Assembly: GCA_004376785.1 (NCBI GenBank)
Contig: SOIY01000229.1
Location: forward strand, 1-39,040
Length of the DNA: 39,040 nt
Reading direction: 5' to 3'
Source of the DNA: Candidatus Stahliibacteriota bacterium
Lineage (GTDB): Bacteria; Hydrothermota; Tepidihabitantia; SM23-42
Below are positions 1,185 through 32,958 of this stretch, one piece after another; within the stretch, counting starts at the first letter, position 1, and every line of letters starts with the position of its first letter. The notes below the pieces were generated by a model. It had not been told where the DNA came from. It searched no databases and worked only from the letters and a program-made list of their open reading frames with translations. The translations under genes and the position numbers were made by a program.

Positions 1185-1568
1185 ATTATTTCCTTTAAAG
1201 TTTGCCCACCCCATCCCCACTCGATTCCTATGCACACAAACTGTATGCGACGCCTATGAATATCAAATCGCACAGCGTTAGATGATACATGATAGGCTAA
1301 TAGCACCACATAAATAATAATTGAGCACCCTCTAACGGGGGACAATGCATTATGCGGTGTTTCCAAATCTACTACTCGTGTCAGACCCGCCACGGTCACT
1401 AGTGACTAATAAACTTGGGCACTACACTAGACGTAGCAGAAGCTAGGTTGTAGACTTATACTGGTCATCTAGTTTGTTTTACTTCTCCGATTCATACCTA
1501 TAGCCACTAAATGGGTGCTGTTGGACACCGCCAGCCAGGAAAATATTAATAGAATCAATCAGAAGTTA
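1185..1568. ncRNA. gene-free, GC-enriched, stem-rich region; candidate structured RNA (strand unknown)
   Basis: 384 nt with no convincing ORF. A sampled 60-nt stretch (1381-1440) is about 50% G+C versus about 30% in nearby coding sequence. Perfect palindrome GTCACTAGTGAC at 1394-1405. Hairpin CTACA-CTAG (1421-1429) / CTAG..TGTAG (1442-1452). Shares a 19-nt motif with 5238-5256. Confidence 0.3.
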
Positions 1569-4263: not shown

Positions 4264-4704
4264 TCATAGAACCTCCGTTATATCATCTTTCAGTTCAGTT
4301 TGAGCAATTTGATACAGCTCTTCTTCAGTATAATCTAACGGATCTGTAATTTTTCTCTGGCCCTTTAAAAAGTTTAAATACCACCTTTCAAAAGGTTTAC
4401 CTCTTTCAATTTCAGTAGTGTGTCTGGAAGATAAAGGAACTTTGGCTTGTTCCTTATCACCTTCCATTCTCTTAAGCAATTGTCTGGCTATACGATCTTC
4501 ATCCAACTCTTCTTGAGCCATATGATGACCAAAGCCAGCAGCAACTCCCATCTCAAATATACCTATTTCGCCGGCGCTGAGAGGCTCATAATCGTCGTCT
4601 AATTCAATGTCATACTCTGTGTCGTTATCTGGCTCATCAAACATATCCTCTTCTGCATCAGATTGAGGATCGTAGATGAAATCTGGATCATAAGGTATAT
4701 CCAC
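4264..4704 (-). CDS. highly acidic hypothetical protein
   Basis: 146 aa with a GTG start as in the track. The first ~60 residues are dominated by D/E (DPDFIYDPQSDAEEDMFDEPDNDTEYDIELDDDYE). Confidence 0.55.
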   Translation of the reverse strand: MDIPYDPDFIYDPQSDAEEDMFDEPDNDTEYDIELDDDYEPLSAGEIGIFEMGVAAGFGHHMAQEELDEDRIARQLLKRMEGDKEQAKVPLSSRHTTEIERGKPFERWYLNFLKGQRKITDPLDYTEEELYQIAQTELKDDITEVL

Positions 4705-4727
4705 TCAGTCCATCCCTTTATTAAATT

Positions 4728-4827
4728 TTTTTGGGGAATTCATTACCGAACACGGCTAACATCCGCTTCCATAGTAGGAAGATCAACTGTTTGTTGGTAT
4801 TTATTTGCGCCGTGAATTCCCCAAAAA
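4728..4827. repeat. 15-bp perfect inverted repeat enclosing about 70 nt
   Basis: TTTTTGGGGAATTCA (4728-4742) pairs with TGAATTCCCCAAAAA (4813-4827). Inner hairpin CTTCC-ATAGTA-GGAAG and CGGC/GCCG. It lies immediately upstream of the start of 4264..4704. Confidence 0.7.
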
Positions 4828-4855
4828 TTACCGCTTGTCAAGCATTTTTTTTGTG

Positions 4856-4935
4856 CTGAAGTGAAAAGTTATCTCCGCTACCCAGGAGCCGTATCAAGTA
4901 ACGGAAGGGCTCGTTTATCCACTTATTCACTTCAG
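4856..4935. repeat. 10-bp perfect inverted repeat enclosing 60 nt
   Basis: CTGAAGTGAA (4856-4865) pairs with TTCACTTCAG (4926-4935). Nested GAGCC...GGCTC / CCGT...ACGG hairpin inside. Confidence 0.7.
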
Positions 4936-5163
4936 CGATCAACACGTATCGGAATTTATAGATACGCACTGGCTTTGGAAGCCTATTTATTTGTTTACCC
5001 ACCTCTATCCCACTCGTCCTACCTTTTTCCACCATTTAATCTCTATAATTATAGATTGGTGTTCGATTTTTTTTGCGTTTTTCACCCTATGGTTACTTTG
5101 CGTTTAATCTACTCGCTACGATACTATGTTATACATAGATAGCTTAAGGAAAAAGACTTGTGA

Positions 5164-5243
5164 TCTACACTCGAACAACGGTGCTGGTTTAAAAAGTACA
5201 GCATTAGTGGGAATACCCACCCATCATCTTATGTGAGTGTAGA
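5164..5243. repeat. 9-bp perfect inverted repeat enclosing 62 nt
   Basis: TCTACACTC (5164-5172) pairs with GAGTGTAGA (5235-5243). Inner hairpin GTGGG-AATA-CCCAC at 5207-5220. Confidence 0.7.
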
Positions 5244-5632
5244 CCAGTACTTGTCACTTTGTGGATGGTAATGCTTAGGGAGCATTGTAGAAAAATATAT
5301 ATCATGTTGTTGTGATAGTCACGATTCGAACATGACTTCTCTCATTGGTATTCAATCAGCTTTGCACTTTGGTAGTTATGAGATATAGCTGACTACTCAT
5401 ACCTACTACAACAGGTTTTTCTTATTTAGCTAGTGGACAAAGTACGCCATATGTAAAAGCACCTGCAAAGATCCACCATCGGCAGTATTTTTTCGCCTGA
5501 TTTTTAACTACAGTTCTTATTGGTATCAGCCAAGAACTTGTCACTACCCGTCAGAAACAGGTGTGTACGTTAAGAAGGGCAGACGTAGATGAAATAACCC
5601 TCTACGATTTTTCGAATTAACCAATGAACATA

Positions 5633-5661
5633 ATATTACCCATAGCTATACTATATCACAA
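5633..5661 (-). promoter_or_regulatory. sigma70-like promoter candidate inside the gene-free region
   Basis: On the minus strand: TTGTGA (5656-5661), 17 nt spacer, TAATAT (5633-5638), pointing towards 4705. Such matches are common by chance in AT-rich DNA. Confidence 0.2.
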
Positions 5662-6040
5662 ATGTATAGATATATACACCATAAATATGAATTCTGCTTC
5701 AATCTCTAAACTCCGTGAATAGATGTAAACAGAATAACCGCAGAGCTCGGTTTATAAATTTTCTGTTTTGTATCAACTAATCACTCATATTTAAAAATGG
5801 TATTTACTCTTCGATAGGGCTTGGAACCCTATAGATAAACAGTTTCAAAACCATACAGATTTTTACTAATGGATTATCTACGCTTTCAGAGCAACGAATA
5901 GCCATCCACAAGGGTATATAAATCTTTATGTATGAAAGTTCTTTCTTATCTCCATAAAGATTATTAAACAACCGGTGATTAACAGCTCAGTTTCAGATAC
6001 GCTCAGCTTACAGTCATAGGAGCACCAGTTTGTTTACAAA

Positions 6041-7429
6041 TTAACTATTTAATACCTTGTTTAGATATTTTTTGTTCTTAATATATTGCAAAGTTATTTG
6101 TATTAAGTCTATTCTATTGTTTAACTTTTTATTTCGTGTTACACGTTCTGTTAGATAGCTTAATAAATTATCGACCTCCTTTCCGGGTGGAATATTAAAT
6201 GTATCAATAATTATACGGTTGTTAATGTCAATAGCAATTCCTGAACTATCTTTACTATCAAACACTTTTTTTATCCGCTTTTCAAAGCAGATTTGTTTTG
6301 GCGTTACGGGATTTTTTTTTAATCCGTTACCTAGCCTCTCTGCTGCTCGGAGCTTAAATAATGGTAATTCACTAAGGTTTTTAATGTTATTTTTATTTAT
6401 TCCAACTCTCTTAATAAATCTCCTAACAGCAGCATTTGTAAATTCATTAGTATAGTGATACATGTGCATACGGACTAGATCTAAAACTGATTCTTTTGTT
6501 TTACCATCATACCTTAACCTGTTCAAAAAAGTCTGCGCTCTTTTTACACTGGCTATTTCGTGTTTATAAAAGGTTACTCGCCCGTTTATCATCTTCCTAG
6601 TGTCCGGTTTTCCTACGTCATGTAGTACAGCAGCAAGGCGGAGCACTAAATCGACCTCGATATTATCACATGTAAGAATATTATGAGTGAATACATCATA
6701 CTTATGATATCTCGCGTCCTGTGTCACACCCGCACATCTACTTAATTCTGGCATAACATAAACCAGCAATCCAACTTTTTGTAATAGTCTTAAATAAACA
6801 GATGGTTTACTGCTAAGTAGTATTTTATTTAATTCTTTGCGAATATCATCAGGGTATGCCCATGTTATTCTATGTCTATATTCTTTTATGAATCCCATTA
6901 AGTTCTTATTAATCTTATAACCAGTCAGTGCTGATAATGAGATAGCTCTTAGTATTCTTATTGGTGACCCGTTGCAAAAATGCGGAGTTGTATAAGATAT
7001 AACACGTAATTTAATATCATTTAATCCACCCAGTGGATCTATTACATCTTTCTTTGATGTAAAATTTATTGGTAAGTACAATGCATTTATTTTAAAATCT
7101 CTACATTTAGAATCCTGTCTGAGTGTGTTATTTTTATCGATAATATGTGACTTACCTCTTCTTGGTAAGGATATTTGTGCTTCTCTATTATCATTAGAAG
7201 CTCTGAATAATATAGTCTTCTGTTTAAAGATGTCGTCTGATTTAACTATCCTACATTTCCCATGTTTTCCAAGAAAATTAATTATTACATCTTTATTTAC
7301 CTTACGAATAACTATATCTAAGTTATTGCTTTTCTTATTACGTATATAATCTCGAACAAAACCACCAGATAAGAACACTTCTGCTTTCGTCTCGTTTTGT
7401 AAAAGCTTTAGTGCTTGTCGTGTGTCCAT
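6041..7429 (-). CDS. class-II tRNA nucleotidyltransferase (CCA-adding / poly(A) polymerase family) with HD domain
   Basis: SGGFVRDYIRNKKSNNLDIVI (GGxVRD head motif), RDFKINALY (RRDFTINA-like), SPIRILRAISLSALTGY (DPLRxLRAxRF-like), AAVLHDVGKP (HD motif). Confidence 0.85.
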   Translation of the reverse strand: MDTRQALKLLQNETKAEVFLSGGFVRDYIRNKKSNNLDIVIRKVNKDVIINFLGKHGKCRIVKSDDIFKQKTILFRASNDNREAQISLPRRGKSHIIDKNNTLRQDSKCRDFKINALYLPINFTSKKDVIDPLGGLNDIKLRVISYTTPHFCNGSPIRILRAISLSALTGYKINKNLMGFIKEYRHRITWAYPDDIRKELNKILLSSKPSVYLRLLQKVGLLVYVMPELSRCAGVTQDARYHKYDVFTHNILTCDNIEVDLVLRLAAVLHDVGKPDTRKMINGRVTFYKHEIASVKRAQTFLNRLRYDGKTKESVLDLVRMHMYHYTNEFTNAAVRRFIKRVGINKNNIKNLSELPLFKLRAAERLGNGLKKNPVTPKQICFEKRIKKVFDSKDSSGIAIDINNRIIIDTFNIPPGKEVDNLLSYLTERVTRNKKLNNRIDLIQITLQYIKNKKYLNKVLNS

Positions 7430-8086: not shown

Positions 8087-8898
8087 TATAGACCCTCTTT
8101 CAGTTCATCTTTAAACCTGTCTCTCATCTTATCTATTTGCTGTTTTACCCAAGGTCCGGTCCTTTTCGGTATTTGCTCATAACCTATCTCTTTGTATGTT
8201 TTATTAGCCATTATACCTTCAGCTATAGAAAGTTCAGTCTCTGTCATATAGTCCTTTAATTTACTAACTAACAGAGCAGCAGCTACTAGCTGTTTTTCTC
8301 TAAGGAATACTTCTTCCTGGGAGATCTCGTCTTCATCTAAACTTACTGCCGTAGGTATATGTTCCGACCTATCTATAATTCTTTCATAGGGTATGTTTAT
8401 ATTCTTTGATAAGCGTTTTAACTTTTTGAAGAATTTATTACACTCGGCTTTATCATTTTTGGTAACCGCTTCATTGTTTACCTCTCCACTAAGTAGTACA
8501 TCTTGTGAATCGATATTATACTTACTCAATATAAATTTGATGCCGTTTATATACACATTTGCAGTTTTAACATACGAAGGAATGCTAACAATTGTTCTGT
8601 TTTCTCTGTAATAATCATTTAAAGCATTCTTAATCTTATAAATCGCAAATGTTTTAAAGTTATCACTACGGGTATGATCAAAGTCTCTTTTTGCTCTTGC
8701 TAATCCTATCAAAGCCGTTCCGAATAAATCTTCTTTGTCTATACCAGACCACATGGAATAGCCGCCTGCCATAATATTTAACAGTTTTGAAAAGTCACTA
8801 AATACAGCTTCAGCTTCTTCTGGTGTTTCACCTAGATAATAATCAAGAAAAACTTCTTCTTTCTTTTTAACTGGTGATTGGGTTATTATATCTACCAT
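8086..8898 (-). CDS. sigma-70-family RNA polymerase sigma factor
   Basis: DLFGTALIGLARAKRDFDHTRSDNFKTFAIYKIKNALNDYYRENRTIVSIPSYV aligns with sigma region 2.1-2.4 ([37 protein letters not shown]...ARTIRIP). The C-terminal TYKEIGYEQIPKRTGPWVKQQIDKM looks like a region-4 HTH. Confidence 0.85.
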   Translation of the reverse strand: MVDIITQSPVKKKEEVFLDYYLGETPEEAEAVFSDFSKLLNIMAGGYSMWSGIDKEDLFGTALIGLARAKRDFDHTRSDNFKTFAIYKIKNALNDYYRENRTIVSIPSYVKTANVYINGIKFILSKYNIDSQDVLLSGEVNNEAVTKNDKAECNKFFKKLKRLSKNINIPYERIIDRSEHIPTAVSLDEDEISQEEVFLREKQLVAAALLVSKLKDYMTETELSIAEGIMANKTYKEIGYEQIPKRTGPWVKQQIDKMRDRFKDELKEGL

Positions 8899-8904
8899 TG
8901 TGAA

Positions 8905-9894
8905 CTAGCTCCTTACGTAATTAGCAGGTATTTCTATCTTATTTCTTTCAACATCTATATGATTATTCTTTTCAAGATGTTTGCGGCCTACCGAAGTTAT
9001 TACTCTTCCCTTTCCACTTCGTAACATAAGTCCTTCTTGTATTAAGAATGGTTCAATAGTGTTTTTGATATTTTTAATAGATTCATTAGTATTAATTGCT
9101 AAATTGTCAAGACCTATTGGTTCTTTATTATTGTATAACATTTTAAGTATTTTTATTTCTGCCAGAGTTAATCCTTTGGAATCGATACCCATCAATTTAA
9201 AGTTCTCTATAACTGTGTCACTTGTGATAACGTTTGCTTCAATATAGATAGTATAATCTCTACTACGTTCTAAGTAACTAACAGCAGTTCTAGGGATACC
9301 TCTACTGCGTTGTGCTATAACCCTCGTTGCTTTGTTGGTTATAATAGTTTTCTTGTTTTTGGCATGCATCCTTACAATTTCTGTAATTTCATCTTTGGAA
9401 TATGTCTCAAATAGAAAACGTAATTTAAATTTCTCTCTGAAGGGCTTAGATAATTCACCGTCGTCGGTTGTTGCGCCTATGATAGTAAAGTAAGGAATCC
9501 AATAAAATTTATTAGGTTTGCCTGTCTCTAACATAAACTTTTCCATGGCTATACCCATAACTTCTTGGCCTTTACGCCCCATCTGATGTATTTCATCAAA
9601 GAAGATAATTGTTGGTCTAACGATTCCCTTTCTATTGCCATATTTGTCGTAATTATTGTGGTCCAACTTATCCAAAGTTTTAAGTATTGCTTCACGATCT
9701 TGCATTTCATGTGGTGAAACCGCTAAAAAATCAACGCCGGATAATTTTGCCATTTCCATAGCCATTGTTGTCTTTCCACAACCAGCAGCTCCTGAAAATA
9801 ACATATGTGGTATGTTTTCATTTCTACTTTTAGCTGATCCTATAGCTATTTGAATTTGCTTTTTATTATTCTTATGCCCAATTAGATTATCCAT
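8905..9894 (-). CDS. ruvB: RuvB-like Holliday-junction branch-migration AAA+ ATPase
   Basis: Walker A HMLFSGAAGCGKTT, Walker B IIFFDEIHQM, sensor GATTDDGELSKPFREKF, RSRGIPRTAVSYLERSRDY (RuvB: ARGTPRIANRLLRRVRDF). C-terminal PIGLDNLAINTNESIKNIKNTIEPFLIQEGLMLRSGKGR matches RuvB [36 protein letters not shown]. Confidence 0.9.
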   Translation of the reverse strand: MDNLIGHKNNKKQIQIAIGSAKSRNENIPHMLFSGAAGCGKTTMAMEMAKLSGVDFLAVSPHEMQDREAILKTLDKLDHNNYDKYGNRKGIVRPTIIFFDEIHQMGRKGQEVMGIAMEKFMLETGKPNKFYWIPYFTIIGATTDDGELSKPFREKFKLRFLFETYSKDEITEIVRMHAKNKKTIITNKATRVIAQRSRGIPRTAVSYLERSRDYTIYIEANVITSDTVIENFKLMGIDSKGLTLAEIKILKMLYNNKEPIGLDNLAINTNESIKNIKNTIEPFLIQEGLMLRSGKGRVITSVGRKHLEKNNHIDVERNKIEIPANYVRS

Positions 9895-9896
9895 AT

Positions 9897-10595
9897 TTAT
9901 CCAGCAACATATCCAATTCGCTTCTCCTTAGTTTTTTCCTCCTCTTGCTTTTTACTTGGTACAACATCAGACTCGTATTCGCCAGCTGCAATCATTAACA
10001 CTTTCTTCTTCATCAGATTAAGCGCTTTAACTCCTGGTATATCATCACCTCGTTTAAATACAGTAGGTATTTTGCGTAATTCTTCCTGCCGTTTCTCTTC
10101 CTTTTCTCTCGTTTCTTTCTTCTTTTCCCATTCACTTGTACCACTACTGTACTGGTATGCATTATTATGGAAACAATTAGCTGGTTTTACTTTTTTAATT
10201 CCACCAGGGAGGTCTGTATAATTATACACATCAATAATCTCCGGATCGTTCTTAACCATTCTTTTATCCTTTGTCAATCTATCAAGAAAATCTAATAACA
10301 GATTGCCAGCTTTTTTCTGATCAGCTTCATGTGATTTAAAAAGTGCTAGTTCTTTTGTATTATCACATCTTGAGCTTATTGACATAATATTAAAATTGTC
10401 AAGGTTAAGAGCATGTATGTTGTTCTCGCTTCTTTCTTTCTCGATTAGGACATACGAAACAATCTCTGGATTCTCCGTAGCGCCGTTTGATCTTATTTTC
10501 ATACCTTTGAACAGACCGTACTCTACAGATGTTGTATTAGTGCCCCCTTTCTTTAAGAGTTCTACAGCAACAAATCTAATTTTGGACTGACTCAT
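9897..10595 (-). CDS. hypothetical protein (232 aa; charged KE-rich C-terminal third)
   Basis: ORF coupled to the GNAT gene by a 4-nt overlap. No motif recognised. Confidence 0.6.
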   Translation of the reverse strand: MSQSKIRFVAVELLKKGGTNTTSVEYGLFKGMKIRSNGATENPEIVSYVLIEKERSENNIHALNLDNFNIMSISSRCDNTKELALFKSHEADQKKAGNLLLDFLDRLTKDKRMVKNDPEIIDVYNYTDLPGGIKKVKPANCFHNNAYQYSSGTSEWEKKKETREKEEKRQEELRKIPTVFKRGDDIPGVKALNLMKKKVLMIAAGEYESDVVPSKKQEEEKTKEKRIGYVAG

Positions 10596-11020
10596 TTGAT
10601 ACCCCCACTCCTTCCTAGTGTTAAGACATAATGATTTCTTGACCAGATTTTATTTACAAAAACATAACCAAGTGATAAGTTCATTTTAATACTTGGTATA
10701 TTATCTTCCCTTACTGTTGAGAAAATATAACTTGTATCACAGTTTTGGATAGCCAGAAGTTTTAGCTTCTTGGCTATCCCTCTTCTACGAAACTCAGGAC
10801 TGACACATGTATGGAAATTCCTGCTTAAATTTTCTTCTTCCTTTATTAACGCGGTGCAACCTACTACTCTGTCATTTACAACCTCTACAAAGTAGTTAGC
10901 TATACTACTTAACACGGAGTATGCAGTATGTTTTCTATACAGCTGATTATGTGCGTTTATTAAACCAGCTATTTGCTCAGCCATTTCAGTGTTAGATAGT
11001 GATACATAAAACTCAGCCAT
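10592..11020 (-). CDS. GNAT-family N-acetyltransferase
   Basis: VVGCTALIKEE...FHTCVSPEFRRRGIAKKL is a GNAT motif A (V-x-P-x-x-R-G-x-G-I-like acetyl-CoA pyrophosphate loop). The start shares a base with the stop of the ATP-grasp gene. Confidence 0.7.
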   Translation of the reverse strand: MAEFYVSLSNTEMAEQIAGLINAHNQLYRKHTAYSVLSSIANYFVEVVNDRVVGCTALIKEEENLSRNFHTCVSPEFRRRGIAKKLKLLAIQNCDTSYIFSTVREDNIPSIKMNLSLGYVFVNKIWSRNHYVLTLGRSGGIK

Positions 11021-12132
11021 TAACCAAACATCCTTTGAGCAACCTTGTTCACAGCATCTTTCTCTGAGTCATCACCGCAGTTATCCAGCATATCTGCAAG
11101 CATTCTCAGCTTTTCCGGATCTATTTTACTGCCCTTCTCAGGTTTCTTTTCTCCCTTTGATAATACTCCTTTGATTTTAGACAGCACTTTACCACCTTTT
11201 TCGGGCTTCTTAGGGCTAAGTATGTCATCGATCACCTTCGTGAATGTTTCTACATACTTCTTGAACGATGTTCCTTCCAGTCCAGGTCCTGTGTTGACCT
11301 CTATGATCCATGCTTTACCTTCAGTGTCCACTACACAATCAACAGCACCAAATTCAAGTTCTAGCGCTCTTAATGCTTTTATACTCTCAACAATCAGATC
11401 ATGTGGTATGTTCTCTGGTTTTACCGATGAGAATTTCCAGCCACGTGTATTGGAACGCACTATGTTGTCAGCGCCAGCAATTTTTTTGCCCTGATATTCA
11501 AGTGCATACTTCAATGTCTCGTCGTTAAGATCAACCCCTTTCTTTTCAGCCATACGTCTGATCTTGTCACTCTGTTGCTCGATGTATGCCTCAGTTAAAT
11601 TATTTCTTCTTTTCTTTTTAACTGCATAAATCAGATTGTCCAAAACTATATGAAGTCGGTATTCTTCTTTTACATCAATATAATTCTGGAAATATCCTTT
11701 TTTACTGAGTTTATTATTTAACACATCAATAACGTCATCAACATGTGTTTTTGTTAAACAGGTGAAGAAATTAGCCCCACCTTGGTGGTAGTTGGTTCTA
11801 CCTATTACCGGCAACGCCATCGGGTTTTTGGTTGCTGCCAAATCTTTCATCACATTTTCTGCCGAAGAAAACGGAGCTATATTTACCTTAGCGGCACGCA
11901 TTAACTCCAAAGCAGTAAACTTATTCCGGTTAGTTCTGATTTTGTTAGGGTGATTCAACACTTTGGCTTTACCGAGGTCGATATTTTCCTTAGTTTTGGT
12001 GCCCCATCCTATAACTATTGCTTTGGTTTTGCCGGCAGATTTTACACCACCTTGAATGTCCAGCGCTTTTGCCAATAACCCACCAGTCTTGTCTGTTGCT
12101 CCACTGTAATTAATATAAACATTATTTTTCAT
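11020..12132 (-). CDS. RimK-like ATP-grasp ligase
   Basis: EYRLHIV, then LEFGAVDCVVDTEGKAWIIEVNTGPGLEGTS, close to RimK LGLDVAGVDIL...LVMEVNASPGLEGIE. KE/KG-rich C-terminal tail. Confidence 0.85.
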   Translation of the reverse strand: MKNNVYINYSGATDKTGGLLAKALDIQGGVKSAGKTKAIVIGWGTKTKENIDLGKAKVLNHPNKIRTNRNKFTALELMRAAKVNIAPFSSAENVMKDLAATKNPMALPVIGRTNYHQGGANFFTCLTKTHVDDVIDVLNNKLSKKGYFQNYIDVKEEYRLHIVLDNLIYAVKKKRRNNLTEAYIEQQSDKIRRMAEKKGVDLNDETLKYALEYQGKKIAGADNIVRSNTRGWKFSSVKPENIPHDLIVESIKALRALELEFGAVDCVVDTEGKAWIIEVNTGPGLEGTSFKKYVETFTKVIDDILSPKKPEKGGKVLSKIKGVLSKGEKKPEKGSKIDPEKLRMLADMLDNCGDDSEKDAVNKVAQRMFG

Positions 12133-12202
12133 TTGTCAAGTCTCCTTTAGCATTTTTTTAAGTTTTATTTTTCTGGATGAATTTTAACATTCGACCATGA
12201 TG

Positions 12203-13507
12203 TTAAATATCAACTGTAAATTTCTTGCTTCCCAACCAGTTTTCTTTTATATTCCTATTCCATTTGTTAATGTTAGGTATCGGTATGGTTAATATTTCCT
12301 TTAGACCATCTATATATTTTGAATACTTATTATACGTAGATAGTTTCCTCATCTTATTATGCCAATTAGATAAAAAGGTTTTGTCAATGTCACTACTTTT
12401 GGAATTATTTAATATTATTGTCAACTCTTTAGATGACATGCAGGTATTAGTATCTTTACAAATAGGTAAATTGTGCCAATCCTTAAACGAATCTGCAAGG
12501 AAGTAATCCCTTGGCCGGTCTGCATACTTTTTAGGTACGATATATCCATGATTAAAGTTCTCATTTGCCCATCTTTTAAAAACATCATCAGTAATTGCTT
12601 TAGCTGTACCTATTACGCATTTAGCTAGTGATGGGTGCATTAACCACATCCCACTCAGTGTTCTGTGTTCTAATCTTCCATCACATGTTCTCCATTCTCC
12701 AAAGTACCCCCAGCCGCCTGTAATACTCATTTGACATTGAGTTCTTCTTTTGTTTCCCATGTCATTGTCTAAACGTATACATGGAATGGCTAATAATTCG
12801 TCCATGATTTTGTTTAGAACATTAAAAAACATCTCTCTCTTACTCAACGTCATTTGAGCTACTTTCAGCGGATTTCCAATGTGAATATGTCCGCCCATCG
12901 GATAATCTCTGCTGTTATCTTTGTGATAACAACCAGCTACCCAATTATATTTAGTAATTGGACCGGTAAGTTCTTTATTAGAGAAAATAGATCTGATATT
13001 TTTTATTAATCCCTCAGGTGTTATAGATGGTTCAGGCCTAATTTCTGCCATAGCCCCATCACATCCTAGGACACCATGTTTACCCATAAGGTTGTTTGCT
13101 CTGACTACATTACCGTCTTTATCAAATAATAAAAATTCAGGATCAGCGCCTATTACCGTATCATGGACGCCTGTAGAAATCCACACGCTCTGTTCGTTTT
13201 TTCCATTAGTAATTCTATTCCATATTTTTGTTGTAACGAAACCTACTCTGTTCATATCCACATTTTTAGAGTCTTTGATCCCGTTTAAATCTTCTGAATA
13301 AGCATGAAATATGTTAAGTAAGATAGCACTTTTCTTACGGTCAGCGGCAGTATCACCTGCTGACCATATTTCTACCTGGTCTTCAGTAAATTTCATGAAT
13401 TGTCTAGCTTTTTTTGACATACGAATAAGATTACTTTCATCTCTGTTTTCTTTCTTATTCTTATCCATTGAACTAGACGGCAGTAGAATTAGCTTTTTCT
13501 TGGTCAT
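12203..13507 (-). CDS. phiEco32-type COOH-NH2 ligase (glutamine synthetase/GCS-fold amidoligase), copy 1
   Basis: IGADPEFLLFDKDGNVV, GCDGAMAEIRPEPS, MGGHIHIG and RLEHRTLSGMW. The same motif order occurs in 18673..19830 and 32959..33867. Start placed at the ATG at 13507, preceded by GGGAG; the longest ORF starts at 13519. Confidence 0.75.
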   Translation of the reverse strand: MTKKKLILLPSSSMDKNKKENRDESNLIRMSKKARQFMKFTEDQVEIWSAGDTAADRKKSAILLNIFHAYSEDLNGIKDSKNVDMNRVGFVTTKIWNRITNGKNEQSVWISTGVHDTVIGADPEFLLFDKDGNVVRANNLMGKHGVLGCDGAMAEIRPEPSITPEGLIKNIRSIFSNKELTGPITKYNWVAGCYHKDNSRDYPMGGHIHIGNPLKVAQMTLSKREMFFNVLNKIMDELLAIPCIRLDNDMGNKRRTQCQMSITGGWGYFGEWRTCDGRLEHRTLSGMWLMHPSLAKCVIGTAKAITDDVFKRWANENFNHGYIVPKKYADRPRDYFLADSFKDWHNLPICKDTNTCMSSKELTIILNNSKSSDIDKTFLSNWHNKMRKLSTYNKYSKYIDGLKEILTIPIPNINKWNRNIKENWLGSKKFTVDI

Positions 13508-15290
13508 TTTGGCTCCCAATTTCTATCTTTATTTTCTTTAATAGAATAACTTTTTCCATGTCTCCTACAGAAAATGCGTCTGAAAGAGCTTCGTAATCAA
13601 GCTTAGTATCTTTTACTTCGTTACTGACGAGTTTATCTATATTTGCTCCGCCTATCTCAAACGCCGATTTGTCAACAATTGAACTACCCAATTTTATAAC
13701 TGTTTTTAAGGTAGATATCTTTTTTGTAGCTTTTCTAAGTTTCCTAATAAGGACCCTAGTTGCATCAGTTCCTCCTATAGTTTCTTCCTCACCTTTTCTG
13801 CATATATAACCAGCCATGAATCCCTGTTTTAATATAAACTTCTTAATCCTGTTGGCTAAAGCATAGATAGGTAATGGTTTTAGAACAGATACATCAGATA
13901 GATCTAATTCATCTGCTACTTCCTCATCACTTTCATATTTTACTATACCTTCTCCAACAAAACTGTCAGCTTTCTTAAGTGCCTCAGGATCCTGACTCAT
14001 ATCTACCTCCCTTATTGTAGCCTCTTCGTTTTTTTTATGCTCCGTTAATTTAGCCTTAGAAGTAACAAGGTTTTCTACCTTACCTTCCTCAATTTCTGTT
14101 ATATCTATACTATTTACTACTTCCTTTTTACCTGAGGATTCTATTTGGATTATTTCACCTTTTTTTACTTCTATTTCGACTGATTTATAGACTTTAGTTT
14201 TTTCTATATCTTTTTGAGTTTTATATTTGTCCAGCGATTTGCTCCAGATTAGCCCGTCTATGTCTTTATCCTTATCTTTGTCTTTATCATCTTCTTCTTC
14301 TTTCTTATGTACACTGGTGTTCACTTCAGTATTTTTTTTGCTATTCACTCCCTGATAATGGTTATAGTTGTTATTATTATAGGTAGTGCTAGTGGTTCTC
14401 CAGATTTTCTTACCAAGAAGAGGTGCTTTTTCAGAGTTATATAAATCTCTTATTGAGGTTTTACTATCAATCTCTGTAGTCAAATCCCACAACGCAACAG
14501 TATCATCAGGAAGTGTGACGAAATCAACATCTTCTTTTTTGATATACGGAAGTTTAATCCCTCCAGAAGAAAATAATTTTCCCAGTTTGTTATATTCAAA
14601 AAGAATATTCTTTAGGAATTTCTCTTCTGAAGCTATAAATACTGTCTTTAGCGGTCTTACTAACACCATTTCGGCAGGTTTAGTATCTCTGAACTGAGCT
14701 ACCTGAAATGGATTGTTACCTGATATTGCTAGCACAGAATAGGTTCCTTGAAGCCTTCTACAAGTTTCTCTCAGCGCTTCTATTGTAAATGGTTCAGCCC
14801 CGTTTTTGGTATATTTGTGTAAAAGATGCGTAATAGCCTCAGTGTCAACCTCTGCATGTCTTTTACAATTGAGTTTGTCAAATATTATATCGTGGTTTGT
14901 TAATGTCCCATTGTGAATAACCATCATATTATCAACTTTTATAGGGTGGTTATTTTTATTATCATAGGAGTTACCTACTGAAGATTTCCTACAATGACCT
15001 AGAAAAACCTTCATAATTTTAGGATATTCTCTCCATAACTTTAGAATTCCTTCGTAATTTTTCTCAGTTTCACCGTACCTTGCTATAAAATCTGGGGCAG
15101 GTATGCCCATTTTCAACCCAGTGTAATTGCCATCAGACCAAAGTAATGATACACCAGTAGCATCTTTACCTCTTTCAACAGTTTTTTGGAGTAGCTGAGT
15201 TGTAATAAAAATAGACGACTCTCTTCTAACTCTTTCATCGGTTTTTGATTCAAATTTATCAAAGGCTAGTGCCCCTACAATTCCGCACAT
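13473..15290 (-). CDS. class-II (Ntn) glutamine amidotransferase domain protein with long C-terminal extension
   Basis: N-terminal MCGIVGA (catalytic Cys2), GHCRKSSVGN...NNHP and VIHNGTLTNHD match GlmS/PurF/AsnB-type GATase_2. About 300 further residues include an EEEDDKDKDKDKD tract. Confidence 0.8.
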   Translation of the reverse strand: MCGIVGALAFDKFESKTDERVRRESSIFITTQLLQKTVERGKDATGVSLLWSDGNYTGLKMGIPAPDFIARYGETEKNYEGILKLWREYPKIMKVFLGHCRKSSVGNSYDNKNNHPIKVDNMMVIHNGTLTNHDIIFDKLNCKRHAEVDTEAITHLLHKYTKNGAEPFTIEALRETCRRLQGTYSVLAISGNNPFQVAQFRDTKPAEMVLVRPLKTVFIASEEKFLKNILFEYNKLGKLFSSGGIKLPYIKKEDVDFVTLPDDTVALWDLTTEIDSKTSIRDLYNSEKAPLLGKKIWRTTSTTYNNNNYNHYQGVNSKKNTEVNTSVHKKEEEDDKDKDKDKDIDGLIWSKSLDKYKTQKDIEKTKVYKSVEIEVKKGEIIQIESSGKKEVVNSIDITEIEEGKVENLVTSKAKLTEHKKNEEATIREVDMSQDPEALKKADSFVGEGIVKYESDEEVADELDLSDVSVLKPLPIYALANRIKKFILKQGFMAGYICRKGEEETIGGTDATRVLIRKLRKATKKISTLKTVIKLGSSIVDKSAFEIGGANIDKLVSNEVKDTKLDYEALSDAFSVGDMEKVILLKKIKIEIGSQNDQEKANSTAV

Positions 15291-15310
15291 ATATTTTTCT
15301 CCTTTAAAAG

Positions 15311-16255
15311 TTAGTAATCGGTAGTATTGGCAGTATTACCTGTACTTGTTATGTATACTCCGTGATTATGTGATGGATATGACGTTACAGGCTCTATTAT
15401 TGGCTGTGATGGTACCTCTCCACCTGATTCATAATTTATATGAAACTCTTTATCTTTTTTGTCTCTTGATTGTTTTTTACTTTTTAATTTTAAGTTGTCT
15501 TTCTGAATCGGCAAATTATTTTTGATCTGTGATTTAATTTCTTTGTATAAACTATTTTTTACTTTGTATTCTTGATCTATCGTAGCGCCATCAATCGTAA
15601 ATAAATTATCACTGTAATTAGATACTATTATATCTACCCTAAAAGTGTTAACTTGTTTCCCAACCAATTGAGAATGTTTACGAAGTGTTTGTGTAAATGA
15701 AATTCCTAGACCATCAACTTTTTTTAAATTAAATAACGGTATACAATGTATGAAGTCAAAAAATGATATAATACTTAACAAATTATCGTTTTTTCCAGAT
15801 AAAAATCTATTACCATAAGTATTAAAATGAAATAAAGAGGAATGTTTATACTCTCTTACGATTGATTTTATAGAATCCATCATAGAAAAACCTGCCGCTT
15901 TTTTATTAGATATAAATGATACACCACCATGCTCTTTCACAGATTTGATTATAGTACTAAATTGACTATAATCAAATTCATCTATATTTTTTACTTTATG
16001 CGTTTCACAAAGAGGTGTTTTATCTACAAATTTTAAAATATTTTCCGGCAGCCATGTATAACCACAGATAGTGCTAGCTCTTGCTGGGAATACATTGATA
16101 CACGCTAATGTTCTTTGTTTTTTCACAGCGACCATAACTGGCGCACCACAAGGTAAATGATCGTAGTTTTGTGTTAAAATAGCATAAGCAATTTTACAGT
16201 CATCTGTAAAAAACTCTCTGTTTTTTGTACCTAGTATTGTGTCACTTCTTAACAC
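15311..16255 (-). CDS. hypothetical protein embedded between the two GATase-II genes
   Basis: 314-aa ORF. No motif recognised. S/T/N/P-rich C-terminal tail (...SGGEVPSQPIIEPVTSYPSHNHGVYITSTGNTANTTDY). Confidence 0.6.
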   Translation of the reverse strand: MLRSDTILGTKNREFFTDDCKIAYAILTQNYDHLPCGAPVMVAVKKQRTLACINVFPARASTICGYTWLPENILKFVDKTPLCETHKVKNIDEFDYSQFSTIIKSVKEHGGVSFISNKKAAGFSMMDSIKSIVREYKHSSLFHFNTYGNRFLSGKNDNLLSIISFFDFIHCIPLFNLKKVDGLGISFTQTLRKHSQLVGKQVNTFRVDIIVSNYSDNLFTIDGATIDQEYKVKNSLYKEIKSQIKNNLPIQKDNLKLKSKKQSRDKKDKEFHINYESGGEVPSQPIIEPVTSYPSHNHGVYITSTGNTANTTDY

Positions 16256-16271
16256 TTTAATCTCCTTTATA

Positions 16272-17066
16272 TTATGGCTTTAGAACAAATTTACTCATGG
16301 TTTTAGCAAATAAATTAAATGCCACACCCATACCACTTATTACCTCTATCTCTATTGGATCACCTAAGTAATCCTCGAAAGGTTTTACAGCAGTTAAAAT
16401 AAAATTTTCTCTGGTAGCAAATAATATAACTTTAACAGCTGGATAATATAATATCCTAATTGGATTACCGCTTCTGAATAAGAACAGGTTGTAAGGGGAA
16501 TCAATATTTAATAAAGCACACGCATATCCACCTTTGATATGTCCAACTGTTTCTCTTATAGATTTTATAGTCCGGTTACTGCCAAAACGCCTTGTAAAAT
16601 GCGATACTAATTGGAAAATAATTTCAGTATCTACCCGAGCGATACGTGTTATATTTTTCCTAAATTTATTAAATAATTCATCATCATTAGCGATCACACC
16701 GTTATGTACGCCTACAATATTCTCTACTACAATTGGATGATTGTTGTAATTATTTTCTGGACTTCCTTTGGTTGGCATTCTACAATGACCAATCATAGAC
16801 TTTAGATGATCACTTGAGGTCTCATCTTTTCCAACCCTCATGTGTTTATCTGCAAAATCGAGATAATCTTTATCTTTTGTAAGCATAGAGCCAGCTAAAG
16901 GTCTACGTATAACTTCTGTTGAGCGGCTTTTCATAACAGCTACACCACTAGCAGACCTCCCGTTTACCTCGGCCTCTTTAAGAAGGGTAGCCATTATAGC
17001 TTTTACTGTTGCAGTATCATCTAATGTATGCTCTTGGAAAAGACCCATACCGAAAATTGAACACAT
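16272..17066 (-). CDS. class-II (Ntn) glutamine amidotransferase-like protein
   Basis: MCSIFGM (Cys2), IGHCRMPTKGSPENNYNNHP and GVHNGVIANDDE. Stand-alone GATase_2 domain of 264 aa. Confidence 0.8.
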   Translation of the reverse strand: MCSIFGMGLFQEHTLDDTATVKAIMATLLKEAEVNGRSASGVAVMKSRSTEVIRRPLAGSMLTKDKDYLDFADKHMRVGKDETSSDHLKSMIGHCRMPTKGSPENNYNNHPIVVENIVGVHNGVIANDDELFNKFRKNITRIARVDTEIIFQLVSHFTRRFGSNRTIKSIRETVGHIKGGYACALLNIDSPYNLFLFRSGNPIRILYYPAVKVILFATRENFILTAVKPFEDYLGDPIEIEVISGMGVAFNLFAKTMSKFVLKP

Positions 17067-17077
17067 TCACAACTCCT

Positions 17078-19830: not shown

Positions 19831-19840
19831 TATTTTCCTT

Positions 19841-29688: not shown

Positions 29689-29691
29689 ACA

Positions 29692-29991: not shown

Positions 29992-30157
29992 TTTTAATCT
30001 CCTCTTTTTTTATTTTACAGGACCGCACAGAACGGTCACAGAGAAACCCTCGAATCTTATGTTTCACTATTACTTTGCTACGCAAAGTCATATGTATGGA
30101 TTTTTGGTAAAAATCCAACACTATATTTATTGGACGATAGACAAAACTAATCAACGT

Positions 30158-32957: not shown

Positions 32958-32958
32958 T

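What the first reader, a model, noticed from the sequence alone, without database searches (positions are those of the whole stretch)
4705..6040. 1.3-kb gene desert packed with perfect long-range stems, adjacent to the CCA-adding enzyme gene
Seen in sequence: intergenic gaps elsewhere in the window are mostly 0-120 nt, yet this stretch has no credible ORF. It contains at least three perfect 9-15 bp inverted repeats, each closing 60-70 nt (4728-4827, 4856-4935, 5164-5243). It also has many nested hairpins, for example AAACAGAA...TTCTGTTT around AACCG-cagagct-CGGTT at about 5728-5767, ATAGGG-cttggaa-CCCTAT at about 5813-5831, and AATCTTTATG...CATAAAGATT at about 5921-5963. A T-arm-like hairpin with a TTCGAAT loop lies on the minus strand at about 5319-5335. 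G+C looks higher than in coding sequence. Established knowledge: very large structured RNAs of unknown function (GOLLD, ROOL) occur in phages and prophages of Firmicutes, typically near tRNA genes or tRNA-related functions. Inference: this is a candidate large ornate RNA or an array of ~80-100-nt structured RNAs. I could not fold any of it into a canonical tRNA cloverleaf.
Basis: partly seen in the sequence, partly recalled or inferred. Interest (0 to 1): 0.75.

Follow-up and report, generated by a model that had tools for sequence, protein, structure and literature searches.

The report
Large phage RNA with embedded tRNA mimic
The 1.3-kb "gene desert" next to a phage CCA-adding enzyme gene encodes a conserved, heavily folded non-coding RNA locus built around a tRNA look-alike whose anticodon arm is replaced by a pseudoknotted domain; it matches no described RNA family, and in related phages it shares the locus with Ro60 and a Y RNA.

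Summary
The gap at 4705-6040 is real and non-coding. It is as conserved (75-83% nt identity) as the neighbouring CCA-adding-enzyme gene in more than 10 related uncultivated phage contigs.

On the gene (minus) strand, a 10-bp long-range helix (5902-5911 / 5259-5268) encloses a ~650-nt domain. Its core (5311-5659) is a tRNA-like module with an acceptor stem, a D-arm with GG, an invariant GTTCGAATC T-loop and no encoded CCA. The anticodon arm is replaced by an 8-9-bp helix leading into a ~270-nt insert with two covariation-supported pseudoknots. Downstream lie two long hairpins and a highly conserved 100-nt terminal element.

No Rfam family matches (GOLLD, ROOL, tmRNA, YrlA, tRNA, introns).

In more distant relatives with the same gene order, a Ro60 (TROVE) gene and a weak YrlA-like match sit inside the same non-coding island.

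Best reading: a new family of phage ornate, tRNA-mimic RNA that is functionally coupled to the CCA-adding enzyme. Maturation by RNase P and CCA addition is inferred, not shown. Function is untested.

The parts
6041..7429 (-). CCA-adding enzyme gene (class II tRNA nucleotidyltransferase with HD/HDIG domain). It lies immediately upstream of the RNA in every relative.
   Evidence: Pfam PolyA_pol, PolyA_pol_RNAbd and HD; PHROG tRNA nucleotidyltransferase, 1e-38; NCBIfam CCA tRNA nucleotidyltransferase, 1e-51, below the equivalog cut-off; synteny.
5966..6035 (-). Hairpin A: a 12-13-bp stem (AAACAAACTGGTG / CACCGGTTGTTT) starting 5 nt after the CCA stop codon.
   Evidence: RNAalifold pairs at columns 10-22/70-81, with compensatory changes at columns 17/75, 18/74 and 21/71; coordinates.
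5921..5962 (-). Hairpin B (AATCTTTATG ... CATAAAGATT) with a variable loop.
   Evidence: I5; columns 85-94/122-131, compensatory at 89/127.
5902..5911 (-). Long-range helix, 5' strand (TTGTGGATGG). It pairs with 5259-5268 and closes a ~650-nt domain.
   Evidence: I14, perfect 10 bp, 633 nt apart. Kept in all relatives, with compensatory changes in L044 and L008 and G-U pairs in L005 and L007. Recovered in the single-sequence MFE fold.
5690..5900 (-). 5' sub-domain with conserved helices, including hairpins 5814-5832 (ATAGGG..CCCTAT) and 5727-5768. It is short or absent in the Ro60-carrying relatives.
   Evidence: (for example 231/245 A-U to G-C in L005).
5669..5675 (-). Leader strand of the helix that brackets the tRNA-like domain (ATATATC). 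It pairs with 5297-5303 (GATATAT).
   Evidence: All 7 pairs show changes on both sides across relatives (helix 1).
5311..5659 (-). tRNA-like RNA with an expanded 'anticodon' domain. Acceptor 5654-5659 / 5312-5317. D-arm 5630-5651. Helix 5620-5628 / 5341-5349 in place of the anticodon stem. T-arm 5318-5336 with GTTCGAATC. Discriminator A at 5311. No encoded CCA.
   Evidence: Covariation: 96.5% of cells paired, 31 of 50 pairs compensatory, 0 of 500 shuffles as high. GTTCGAATC is invariant in 11 sequences. With the insert replaced by an artificial anticodon loop, ARAGORN and 9/10 homologs at 100, 95, 90 and 85% thresholds; 0 of 500 shuffles were called at the 95, 90 and 85% thresholds (shuffles were not run at default).
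5350..5619 (-). The ~270-nt insert. It holds hairpins hp1 5584-5606, hp2 5540-5568, hp3 5512-5538, hp4 5481-5497, hp5 5431-5478 and hp6 5372-5406. Pseudoknot A pairs 5461-5465 with 5412-5416. Pseudoknot B pairs 5387-5393 with 5355-5361.
   Evidence: Pseudoknot A: CAGGT/ACCTG becomes TAGGT/ACCTA (L045) and CAAGT/ACTTG (L008). Pseudoknot B: GTCAGCT/AGCTGAT becomes GCCAGCT/AGCTGGC and GCCAACT/AGTTGGC. Both strands of pseudoknot B are deleted together in L010 and L044.
5259..5303 (-). Trailer strand of the bracketing helix (5297-5303), small hairpin 5270-5286, and the 3' strand of the long-range helix (5259-5268).
5162..5245 (-).
   Evidence: (I13). The 9-bp stem is 100% paired in 8 relatives, with compensatory changes at two pairs (helix 2).
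5022..5159 (-). Conserved multi-helix sub-domain containing the invariant block AAGTAGATTAAACGC.
   Evidence: RNAalifold columns 974-1114, with several compensatory pairs. Not analysed across the more distant clades.
4998..5019 (-). G-rich motif GGACGAGTGGGATAGAGGTGGG. Candidate phage promoter or regulatory signal that may start a second transcription unit.
   Evidence: Two copies in the window, both on the minus strand, against 0.06 expected by chance. In nearly all phage-relative loci whose held sequence covers these positions it lies on the gene strand, at one or both of the same two syntenic positions.
4855..4936 (-).
   Evidence: I11; columns 1200-1281, many compensatory pairs. A possible loop contact with AGCCGU at about 4754-4759 is unproven because both sides are invariant.
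4728..4827 (-). A 15-bp closing stem around ACGG...CCGT, a small hairpin and the invariant GGATGTTAGCCGTGTTCGG. It is the most conserved piece of the region.
   Evidence: Conserved down to relatives with 46% CCA identity. In the closing stem 6 of 10 pairs are compensatory, and in the inner hairpin 4 of 5.
4702..4727 (-). Conserved tail AATTTAATAAAGGGATGG(A/T)CTGA plus the start codon of the next gene (GTG at 4704). It is conserved even where the downstream gene differs.

Best explanation
The gap is a non-coding RNA island transcribed from the gene (minus) strand.

Shown by comparative analysis:
- It is conserved end to end in a lineage of uncultivated phages, always directly downstream of the CCA-adding enzyme gene.
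- A long-range helix closes a ~650-nt ornate fold.
- The centre of that fold is a tRNA-like module in true tRNA order: acceptor stem, D-arm, T-arm, and a roughly 12-bp acceptor/T stack by my reading of the sequence.
- The anticodon arm is replaced by a helix leading into a ~270-nt domain with two pseudoknots. The 3' end carries no CCA.
- Further conserved hairpin RNAs follow.

Inferred mechanism:
- The tRNA-like module is recognised by tRNA-handling enzymes. RNase P would cut at G1 (5659). A 3' processing enzyme would cut after A5311. The phage's own CCA-adding enzyme would then add and maintain a CCA tail. This is what was observed for the tRNA-like Y RNA YrlA of M. smegmatis.
- The result would be a stable tRNA-mimic ribonucleoprotein. 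The pseudoknotted domain and the surrounding scaffold would be the working part, acting as an adaptor, decoy or scaffold in a phage RNA-maintenance or counter-defence module.
- In related phages that module also includes Ro60 and a YrlA-type Y RNA.
- The downstream hairpins and the terminal element are either companion small RNAs or the structured leader of the next operon.
For: Non-coding yet conserved. Nucleotide identity is 75-83% across ~1.2 kb, equal to that of the CCA gene, with no codon periodicity.

Conserved position. The gap follows the CCA gene in every relative examined down to 46% protein identity; the 49%-identity relative L036 instead carries two ordinary tRNA genes ~2.7 kb downstream.

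Structure.
- RNAalifold on 5 sequences gives 309 pairs, 49 of them with compensatory changes.
- On curated helices of the tRNA-like core, 96.5% of cells are paired and 31 of 50 pairs are compensatory. No shuffle of 500 reaches this, and slid controls give 29-43% paired.
- The long-range helix, hairpin 5162-5245 and the terminal element give 97.9% paired, with 17 of 34 pairs compensatory.

Strand. By my tally of the table, 43 of 459 paired cells are G-U, which would be A-C mismatches on the other strand.

tRNA likeness.
- The G53-TTCGAAT-C61 T-loop is invariant, and the D-loop carries AG..GG..A.
- Acceptor pairs co-vary: GTGATA/TATCAC in the window, GTAATG/CATTAC in L044, GTATAA/TTATAC in L038, CTGCTA/TAGTAG in L061.
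- With the insert excised, homologs score as near-threshold tRNAs, while 0 of 500 shuffles do.
- There are no tRNA genes in the 39-kb window, so this is the only phage-encoded CCA-less acceptor end seen near the enzyme.

Ro60 link. Relatives L038, L061 and L062 have the same gene order. They carry a TROVE/Ro60 gene and sub-threshold Rfam YrlA matches (E 4e-5, 0.015, 5e-4) inside the same non-coding island, together with homologs of the tRNA-like RNA and the terminal element.

Precedent from papers.
- M. smegmatis YrlA is cut by RNase P and receives CCA in vivo, and Y RNAs come in polycistronic sets (PMC4201824).
- GOLLD can carry tRNAs in its linker (PMC12286853).
Against: - There is no expression, end-mapping or processing data of any kind.
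- The acceptor stem is not at a free end. It is bracketed by a conserved leader/trailer helix and by the long-range helix. The module may therefore never be released and may act purely as an internal structural or protein-binding module.
- The acceptor has 6 Watson-Crick pairs plus a mismatch, and only 1 of 10 excised constructs passes ARAGORN's default threshold.
- ARAGORN's relaxed intron mode, which first flagged the domain, gives about one false hit per 39 kb.
- One relative (L005) has lost the T-arm and the 3' acceptor strand while keeping the rest.
- The window's own clade has no Ro60 gene or YrlA match in the sequence available, so the Ro60 link is by synteny only.
- The curated alignments behind searches were registered by hand, partly with knowledge of the pairing.
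Confidence: 0.6

Rival explanations
1. It is a divergent tmRNA-like ribosome-rescue RNA. The tRNA-like domain plus pseudoknots would enter stalled ribosomes, and a short internal reading frame would serve as a tag.
For: The topology matches tmRNA: 5' acceptor, then a large pseudoknotted insert, then the T-arm and 3' acceptor. A short ORF starting with an Ala codon (GCN) follows hairpin hp1 in every sequence examined. In three close relatives it is 9 codons long (ALLNVHTCF*, AFLNVYTCF*, AIFNVYAHS*), as read from the alignments.
Against: ARAGORN's tmRNA search and the Rfam library, which includes its tmRNA families, find nothing, even at relaxed thresholds. Pair 3-70 is G-C in seven of the ten sequences, A-U in two and G-U in only one, so the alanine identity element is not conserved. 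A true D-stem is present, which standard tmRNAs lack (my knowledge). The candidate tag varies in length and has no conserved C-terminus; it runs through a hairpin with indels that are not multiples of three. No SmpB gene was seen in the window.
Confidence: 0.1
2. There is no single large functional RNA. The region would be an array of independent small RNAs (Y-RNA-like hairpins and a tRNA-like RNA), plus the structured 5' leader of the downstream operon, all cut from or initiated within the island.
For: Bacterial Y RNAs occur as polycistronic sets with tRNAs. A recurrent strand-specific G-rich motif at 4998-5019 also precedes the next gene block at 1205-1220 and looks like a promoter. In relatives a Ro60 gene separates the upstream and downstream RNA parts. 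In several clades the 3' arm of the terminal element is followed by a T-run, which is terminator-like, and it abuts the ribosome-binding site.
Against: The 10-bp long-range helix and the leader/trailer helix are conserved with compensatory changes. This argues that at least 5259-5911 folds as one unit. The reading is partly compatible with the best explanation, which already treats 4705-5019 as possibly separate.
Confidence: 0.2
3. It is an ordinary tRNA gene interrupted by a self-splicing (group I-like) intron in the anticodon loop.
For: The insert size is typical of tRNA group I introns (my knowledge).
Against: The flanks of the insert form a continuous 8-9-bp helix with compensatory changes, leaving no 7-nt anticodon loop. 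The 'anticodon' that ARAGORN reports differs between homologs: CAT, TGA, CCC. There is no Rfam match of any kind, which includes its intron families, at E<=10. The pseudoknot topology does not fit P3/P7 (my reading). ARAGORN's relaxed mode gives about one false hit per 39 kb.
Confidence: 0.04
4. It is a DNA-level element (replication origin, packaging site) or a decayed or recoded protein gene.
For: Many inverted repeats lie in a long non-coding stretch.
Against: Pairing is maintained through G-U pairs that work on one strand only. tRNA-type conserved loops are present. There is no codon periodicity, stops of all three kinds occur in every frame, and indels are not multiples of three. There are no iteron-like direct repeats.
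Confidence: 0.02

Closest known systems
GOLLD and ROOL (large ornate phage/prophage RNAs)
   Same: Very large (>600 nt), multi-helix, pseudoknotted, phage-encoded, and found in a tRNA-related genomic context. GOLLD can carry covalently embedded tRNAs in its linker (PMC12286853), much as this RNA embeds a tRNA-like module inside a larger fold.
   Different: No match to either Rfam model at E<=10 in the window or in six homologs. The embedded module is not a normal tRNA. The neighbour is a CCA-adding enzyme gene rather than a tRNA island. Oligomeric cage formation is unknown.
tmRNA (SsrA)
   Same: A tRNA-like domain made from the 5' and 3' ends of the unit, with the anticodon arm replaced by a long helix leading to a large domain containing H-type pseudoknots.
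   Different: It has a proper D-stem. There is no conserved G3-U70, no conserved tag frame and no encoded CCA. Neither ARAGORN nor the Rfam library (which includes its tmRNA families) detects it. The module is embedded inside a larger RNA by two bracketing helices.
Bacterial and phage Y RNAs (YrlA/YrlB) with Ro60 (Rsr)
   Same: tRNA mimicry with D- and T-arm features. Several structured RNAs sit in one polycistronic island. [quoted passage not shown] In syntenic relatives the island contains Ro60 and a YrlA-like RNA.
   Different: YrlA has the permuted order T-arm, closed acceptor hairpin, D-arm, and is about 110-150 nt. Here the order is that of a real tRNA, the acceptor is open, and the unit is 350-650 nt. 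The window has no YrlA match, no Ro60 gene and no clear GNCGAA Ro-binding motif.
Phage T4 tRNA-region stable RNAs and CCA-less phage tRNAs (my knowledge)
   Same: Phage-encoded tRNA-like RNAs that depend on RNase P and on CCA addition after transcription.
   Different: Those are small (about 75-140 nt), cloverleaf-like and rely on the host enzyme. Here the phage supplies the enzyme, and the RNA is far larger and non-decoding.

Membership tests
GOLLD / ROOL | Match to the family covariance model (conserved sequence and secondary structure) | tested here: not met
   Rfam 15 cmscan gave no hit at gathering score or at E<=10 for the window and E<=1 for six homologs.
GOLLD / ROOL | Large, ornate, pseudoknotted phage RNA near tRNA-related genes | tested here: met
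   A ~650-nt unit closed by a long-range helix, two pseudoknots, and a position downstream of the CCA-adding enzyme gene.
GOLLD / ROOL | RNA-only homo-oligomeric nanocage | not testable with these tools
   Needs cryo-EM or SEC-MALS of the transcript.
tRNA | Acceptor stem stacked on the T-arm (about 12 bp), T-loop G53-TTCRANN-C61, D-arm with G18G19 | tested here: met
   Helices co-vary. GTTCGAATC is invariant and the D-loop carries AG..GG..A. Excised constructs score near the tRNA threshold, against 0 of 500 shuffles.
tRNA | 5-bp anticodon stem with a 7-nt loop (a decoding anticodon) | tested here: not met
   It is replaced by a co-varying 8-9-bp helix that opens into a ~270-nt domain. ARAGORN at default settings and the Rfam tRNA model find nothing.
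tmRNA | tRNA-like domain plus pseudoknot-rich insert between the acceptor halves | tested here: met
tmRNA | G3-U70 alanine identity pair | tested here: not met
   Pair 3-70 is G-C in 7 sequences, A-U in 2 and G-U in 1 (columns 15/161).
tmRNA | Conserved tag reading frame with resume codon and conserved C-terminus | tested here: inconclusive
   A GCN-initiated short ORF exists in all sequences, but its length and C-terminus are not conserved across clades.
tmRNA | Recognised by ARAGORN's tmRNA search or the Rfam tmRNA models | tested here: not met
YrlA / Y RNA | Match to the Rfam YrlA model, with permuted order T-arm, closed acceptor hairpin, D-arm | tested here: not met
   No hit in the window at E<=10. 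The module here has true tRNA order. Sub-threshold YrlA hits occur elsewhere in the island of relatives L038, L061 and L062.
YrlA / Y RNA | Encoded next to a Ro60 (TROVE) gene on the same strand | tested here: not met
   There is no TROVE gene in the window or in the loci of its clade. The feature is met in syntenic relatives L038, L061 and L062.
YrlA / Y RNA | Ro60-binding motif (GNCGAAN0-1G / CGAA) in a stem formed by the 5' and 3' ends | tested here: inconclusive
   Checked by eye only. CGAA occurs in several places but not in a conserved equivalent context. The terminal element does have a long 5'/3' stem.
Group I intron in a tRNA gene | Match to the intron model, and exons that reconstitute an anticodon stem-loop | tested here: not met
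   There is no Rfam match of any kind, which includes its intron families. The flanks form one continuous helix without a loop.

The most novel reading that the evidence does not exclude
This is a previously undescribed class of phage RNA. It is a non-decoding tRNA mimic whose anticodon arm has been replaced by a double-pseudoknot effector domain, built into a ~650-nt ornate scaffold. It would be matured and kept CCA-tailed by a dedicated phage CCA-adding enzyme. It would be the core of an RNA-based module (with Ro60 and Y RNA in sister lineages) that intervenes in host translation or tRNA surveillance. Possible roles are a tagless ribosome-rescue or ribosome-capture RNA, or a decoy or adaptor against tRNA-targeting defences.
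Probability: 0.35. Interest if true: 0.85.

Novelty: new variant of a known kind. Interest (0 to 1): 0.75.

Why it matters
- Very few RNA classes longer than 500 nt with extensive covariation are known in bacteria and phages (GOLLD, ROOL, OLE and a few others), and none has an established function. This one arrives with two unusually concrete handles.
- The first handle is a recognisable tRNA-like module with a CCA-less acceptor end, placed directly after a phage CCA-adding enzyme gene.
- The second is a syntenic link to Ro60 and Y RNAs.
- Together they make specific experiments possible, using RNase P, CCA addition, Ro60 pull-down and ribosome binding.
- It may show how large phages use tRNA mimicry beyond decoding. 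It would also extend the range of known tRNA-derived architectures: tmRNA-like topology without the tmRNA hallmarks.

Tried and rejected
- **GenBank phage searches.** Searches with the region and with 20 kb of context found nothing.
- **IMG/VR search with the CCA protein.** The single protein gave nothing. Its alignment gave only distant loci.
- **Metagenome scan for an invariant 18-mer.** It returned mostly chance or coding hits. Two hits, L017 and L018, looked similar locally. They lie in a GC-rich repeat of an unrelated bacterial contig and have no Rfam hit, so I dropped them.
- **Pattern scans.** The 3' half of the tRNA-like domain gave no hit in IMG/VR or in GTDB genomes. The terminal-element pattern found only relatives of L038. 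Its four genome hits match the number I estimated for chance and do not resemble the element.
- **Coding or recoded gene:** rejected.
- **Sigma-70 promoters and intrinsic terminators:** nothing beyond chance.
- **tmRNA tag:** no conserved frame found.
- **Group I intron:** rejected (see rival explanations).
- **Very long-range pairing.** RNAalifold paired the first nucleotides after the CCA stop codon with the ACGAGT motif. This was not supported in L007, so I dropped it.
- **RNAalifold on the terminal element.** Two attempts were spoiled by my wrong coordinates for some loci. I replaced them with the curated count.
- **ARAGORN relaxed intron mode.** It proved unspecific, with about one hit per 39 kb of shuffled sequence. 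It is not used as evidence on its own.
Full report
**1. The observation**

The stretch 4705-6040 lies between two minus-strand genes. One is a class II tRNA nucleotidyltransferase with an HD domain (6041-7429). The other is a 146-aa ORF of unknown function (4264-4704). All substantial ORFs in the 39-kb window are on the minus strand.

The gap has no ORF longer than 93 aa. The three long repeats fold better than shuffled sequence, with z from -2.7 to -4.7. G+C is raised only in the 4500-5400 part.

ARAGORN at default settings finds no tRNA or tmRNA in the window. Rfam 15 finds nothing at gathering thresholds, and nothing meaningful at E<=10.

**2. It is conserved and it is not coding**

GenBank phages hold no relative. 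The CCA-enzyme protein has many relatives in metagenome assemblies. I fetched contigs for proteins at 86-57% identity. Every one has a 1.2-2.0-kb gene-free stretch directly downstream of the CCA gene, in the same orientation.

The gap aligns end to end among the five closest sequences at 75-83% nucleotide identity. That equals the identity of the CCA gene itself. Substitutions in the CCA gene are strongly 3-periodic (for example 75/28/141). In the gap they are flat (70/81/67). Indels are of arbitrary length, and all stop codons occur in all frames.

A profile of the close sequences finds most of the RNA in the 60-63% relatives (L007, L041-L045). It finds parts of the RNA in L008 and in the IMG/VR contigs L037-L039.

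**3. Structure and strand**

RNAalifold on the five close sequences predicts 309 pairs, 49 of them with compensatory changes. Reading the alignments showed a tRNA-like arrangement on the gene-sense (minus) strand:

- acceptor 5' strand GTGATA (5654-5659);
- the dinucleotide UA;
- a D-arm (5630-5651) with the loop AG..GG..A;
- a helix, TTCATTGGT (5620-5628) pairing with ACCAATGAG (5341-5349);
- a T-arm (5318-5336) with the invariant G-TTCGAAT-C;
- acceptor 3' strand TATCAC (5312-5317);
- discriminator A (5311), with no CCA after it.

By my reading of the sequence, the T-stem and acceptor together make a 12-bp stack, as in tRNA. Between the two strands of the helix lie about 270 nt with six hairpins and two pseudoknots. 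Pseudoknot A is CAGGT/ACCTG. Pseudoknot B pairs the hp6 loop GTCAGCT with AGCTGAT.

I extracted the strands of eight helices from ten homologs by hand and checked that every string is present in the source. I then counted the pairs:

- 96.5% of 459 cells are standard pairs, and 31 of 50 pairs have changes on both sides.
- None of 500 shuffles reaches the observed values. Partner-slid controls give 29-43% pairing.

Examples of co-variation:

- Acceptor: GTGATA/TATCAC, GTAATG/CATTAC, GTATAA/TTATAC, and CTGCTA/TAGTAG in L061.
- Pseudoknot A: CAGGT/ACCTG, TAGGT/ACCTA, CAAGT/ACTTG.
- Pseudoknot B: GTCAGCT/AGCTGAT, GCCAGCT/AGCTGGC, GCCAACT/AGTTGGC. Both of its strands are deleted together in L010 and L044.

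By my tally, 43 of the 459 cells are G-U pairs, which would be A-C mismatches on the opposite strand. The RNA is therefore on the gene strand.

Caveat: the registers were set by hand, in a few cases with knowledge of the pairing.

**4. The tRNA-like module is embedded in a larger fold**

A leader/trailer helix brackets the acceptor. It is ATATATC at 5669-5675 pairing with GATATAT at 5297-5303. All seven pairs co-vary, for example ACACACT/AGTGTGT, TCACACT/AGTGTGG and GCATCAG/CTGATGT.

A 10-bp long-range helix, 5902-5911 with 5259-5268, encloses the whole ~650-nt unit. That unit includes a 5' sub-domain of about 210 nt. The helix is perfect in the window (I14). It is kept in all relatives, with compensatory changes in L044 and L008 and G-U pairs in L005 and L007. 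The single-sequence minimum-energy fold recovers it (z -2.6).

Downstream of this unit lie, in order:

- a long hairpin (5162-5245);
- a multi-helix sub-domain (5022-5159);
- a G-rich motif (4998-5019);
- a long hairpin with the invariant loop AUACGGCUCC (4855-4936);
- a 100-nt terminal element (4728-4827).

The closing stem and inner hairpin of the terminal element co-vary strongly. It is the most conserved piece, recognisable down to 46% CCA identity.

**5. How tRNA-like is it?**

That mode yields about one false hit per 39 kb of shuffled sequence, so it is not evidence by itself.

I replaced the insert by an artificial 7-nt loop and ran ARAGORN on the result. It and 9 of 10 homologs at 100, 95, 90 and 85% of its thresholds. 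None of 500 shuffles was called at the 95, 90 or 85% thresholds; shuffles were not run at the default threshold. The module is therefore clearly tRNA-derived in form but sub-canonical. It has no anticodon loop: the flanks of the insert form a continuous co-varying helix.

**6. Context that bears on function**

The window carries a block of phiEco32-type COOH-NH2 ligases, glutamine amidotransferases, ATP-grasp enzymes, a GNAT, a RuvB-like ATPase, a sigma factor and a fused RNA-polymerase beta/beta'-like protein.

In the more distant relative L038 (CCA identity 46%), the non-coding stretch after the CCA gene contains a 461-aa TROVE/Ro60 protein. It also has an Rfam YrlA match: 34.9 bits, E 4e-5, below the gathering score of 69. 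That match shows the canonical permuted order of T-arm, closed acceptor hairpin, D-arm.

Two further Ro60-carrying contigs were found through the TROVE protein: L061 (157 kb) and L062. Their gene order is the same as the window's: COOH-NH2 ligase, RimK, GNAT, an unknown gene, RuvB-like, sigma, CCA enzyme, ~1 kb of RNA, a small ORF in L061, Ro60, ~0.55 kb of RNA, a small ORF, ATP-grasp. They carry YrlA matches, a homolog of the tRNA-like RNA right after the CCA gene, the G-rich motif and the terminal element after Ro60.

The window's clade therefore holds the same island without Ro60 and YrlA. tblastn and Pfam find no TROVE gene in the window or in its close relatives.

The literature gives relevant precedent:

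- Bacterial and phage Y RNAs are encoded beside Ro60, often several per locus and polycistronic with tRNA.
- M. smegmatis YrlA is cleaved by RNase P and receives CCA in vivo (PMC4201824).
- Phage Ro60 with upstream Y-like RNAs has been described (PMC12135203).
- GOLLD can carry tRNAs in its linker (PMC12286853).
- Jumbo phages are known to carry CCA-adding enzymes and Ro60 as putative RNA-repair components (PMC7824862).

In the three searches and five papers I consulted I found no description of an RNA with the architecture seen here.

**7. Interpretation**

Shown:

- a conserved, structured, non-coding RNA island on the minus strand;
- a ~650-nt unit with an embedded tRNA mimic and two pseudoknots;
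- obligatory adjacency to a phage CCA-adding enzyme gene;
- co-location with Ro60 and YrlA in syntenic relatives.

Inferred: tRNA-processing enzymes recognise the mimic, and the phage enzyme adds or repairs its CCA end. This would give a stable ribonucleoprotein whose pseudoknotted domain and scaffold do the work, as an adaptor, decoy or scaffold in an RNA-maintenance or counter-defence module.

The two bracketing helices leave open a different possibility: the module may never be released, and may act as an internal protein-binding or structural element, as proposed for tRNAs tethered in GOLLD.

The part downstream of the G-rich motif may be a separate transcription unit, either small RNAs or the leader of the next operon. 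The motif recurs, strand-specifically, before the next gene block at 1205-1220, and it is found at one or both of the same two positions in nearly all relatives whose held sequence covers them.

**8. Rivals**

- tmRNA-like rescue RNA: the topology fits, but the identity pair, the tag frame and the detection tools do not.
- Array of independent small RNAs: partly compatible with the best explanation, but the long-range helices argue for a large unit.
- Intron-containing tRNA gene: no anticodon loop and no intron model match.
- DNA-level element or decayed gene: excluded by the strand-specific G-U pairing and the lack of coding signal.

**9. Novelty and verdict**

The RNA is not a member of GOLLD, ROOL, tmRNA, YrlA or tRNA as defined by their models. 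It combines features of three known kinds: ornate phage RNAs, tmRNA-like topology, and Y-RNA-type tRNA mimicry with a Ro60 neighbourhood. I rate it a new variant of a known kind.

There is a substantial chance that it represents a functionally new class. Pattern scans found the family only in environmental phage contigs, with none in GTDB genomes, and a BLAST search found none in GenBank phages.

Noticed in passing
window 4998-5019 and 1205-1220 (both minus strand); same two syntenic positions in relatives (for example L003 8473-8488 and 10569-10584): A G-rich motif (core GTGGG-N3-9-GKTGGG; longer form about GGAnCGAGTGGG-N5-GGTGGG in the window copy) occurs twice in the window, against 0.06 expected by chance. 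It lies on the gene strand at one or both of the same two positions in nearly all phage relatives, each time at the downstream end of a non-coding gap just before a gene block. It is a candidate promoter for the phage's own polymerase or sigma factor, or another regulatory signal.
   Followed up: partly
window 1236-1568 (minus-strand orientation): A second gene-free stretch of about 330 nt lies downstream of the ATP-grasp gene (1569-2438). Its G+C is 0.42. Relatives have a gap of 270-625 nt at the same position, with some conserved blocks. It could hold another structured RNA or leader.
   Followed up: partly
L003 7393-7468, L004 3383-3458 (minus strand of the loci); inferred for the near-identical L028, which was not scanned: One sub-lineage has an extra 76-nt tRNA gene inserted between the CCA stop codon and the start of the RNA, on the strand opposite to all genes. 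ARAGORN calls it Ser with anticodon ACT, and the Rfam tRNA model gives 40 bits.
   Followed up: no
L005 (about 8150-8560): This relative has lost 37 nt covering the T-arm and the 3' acceptor strand. It has also lost the 5' arm of the terminal element, while the rest of the RNA is kept. This may be decay, an assembly artefact, or evidence that the parts are separable.
   Followed up: no
L038 6064-6400; L062 about 6620-6960; L061 about 6440-6700: In Ro60-carrying relatives, the YrlA-like RNA and two or three following ~70-nt units all begin with a shared motif, (A)TGGTG(Y)AGT...TACTTCAC. The motif can form a helix with a U-U mismatch and is a candidate Ro60-binding site. It was not found in the window.
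   Followed up: partly
window 8905-21247 and 28975-33867: A dense block of peptide- or amide-bond-forming enzymes: at least four phiEco32-type COOH-NH2 ligases, several glutamine amidotransferases and Peptidase_C26 proteins, three ATP-grasp/RimK-like proteins and a GNAT. There is also a 1123-aa protein with both RNA polymerase beta and beta' motifs. Any link to the tRNA-like RNA, for example aminoacyl-RNA-dependent chemistry, is pure speculation.
   Followed up: no
window 4702-4727; same position in all relatives: The sequence AAAGGGATGGTCTGA(A/G)TG before the downstream start codon is nearly invariant, even where the downstream gene differs. It contains a two-codon mini-ORF (ATG GTC TGA) abutting the real start codon.
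   Followed up: no
L006 / L031 (contig Ga0164310_10005116): One source deposits this phage-like contig, which is syntenic with the window, under a 'Candidatus Asgardarchaeum californiense' MAG name. This is probably a binning artefact, though it hints at a hydrothermal-sediment origin.
   Followed up: no
window 5555-5583 and homologous positions in relatives: A short ORF starting with an Ala codon follows hairpin hp1 in every homolog: ALLNVHTCF* in the window, AFLNVYTCF* in L003 and AIFNVYAHS* in L005. Its length and C-terminus differ in other clades, so it is only a weak candidate for a tmRNA-type tag.
   Followed up: partly
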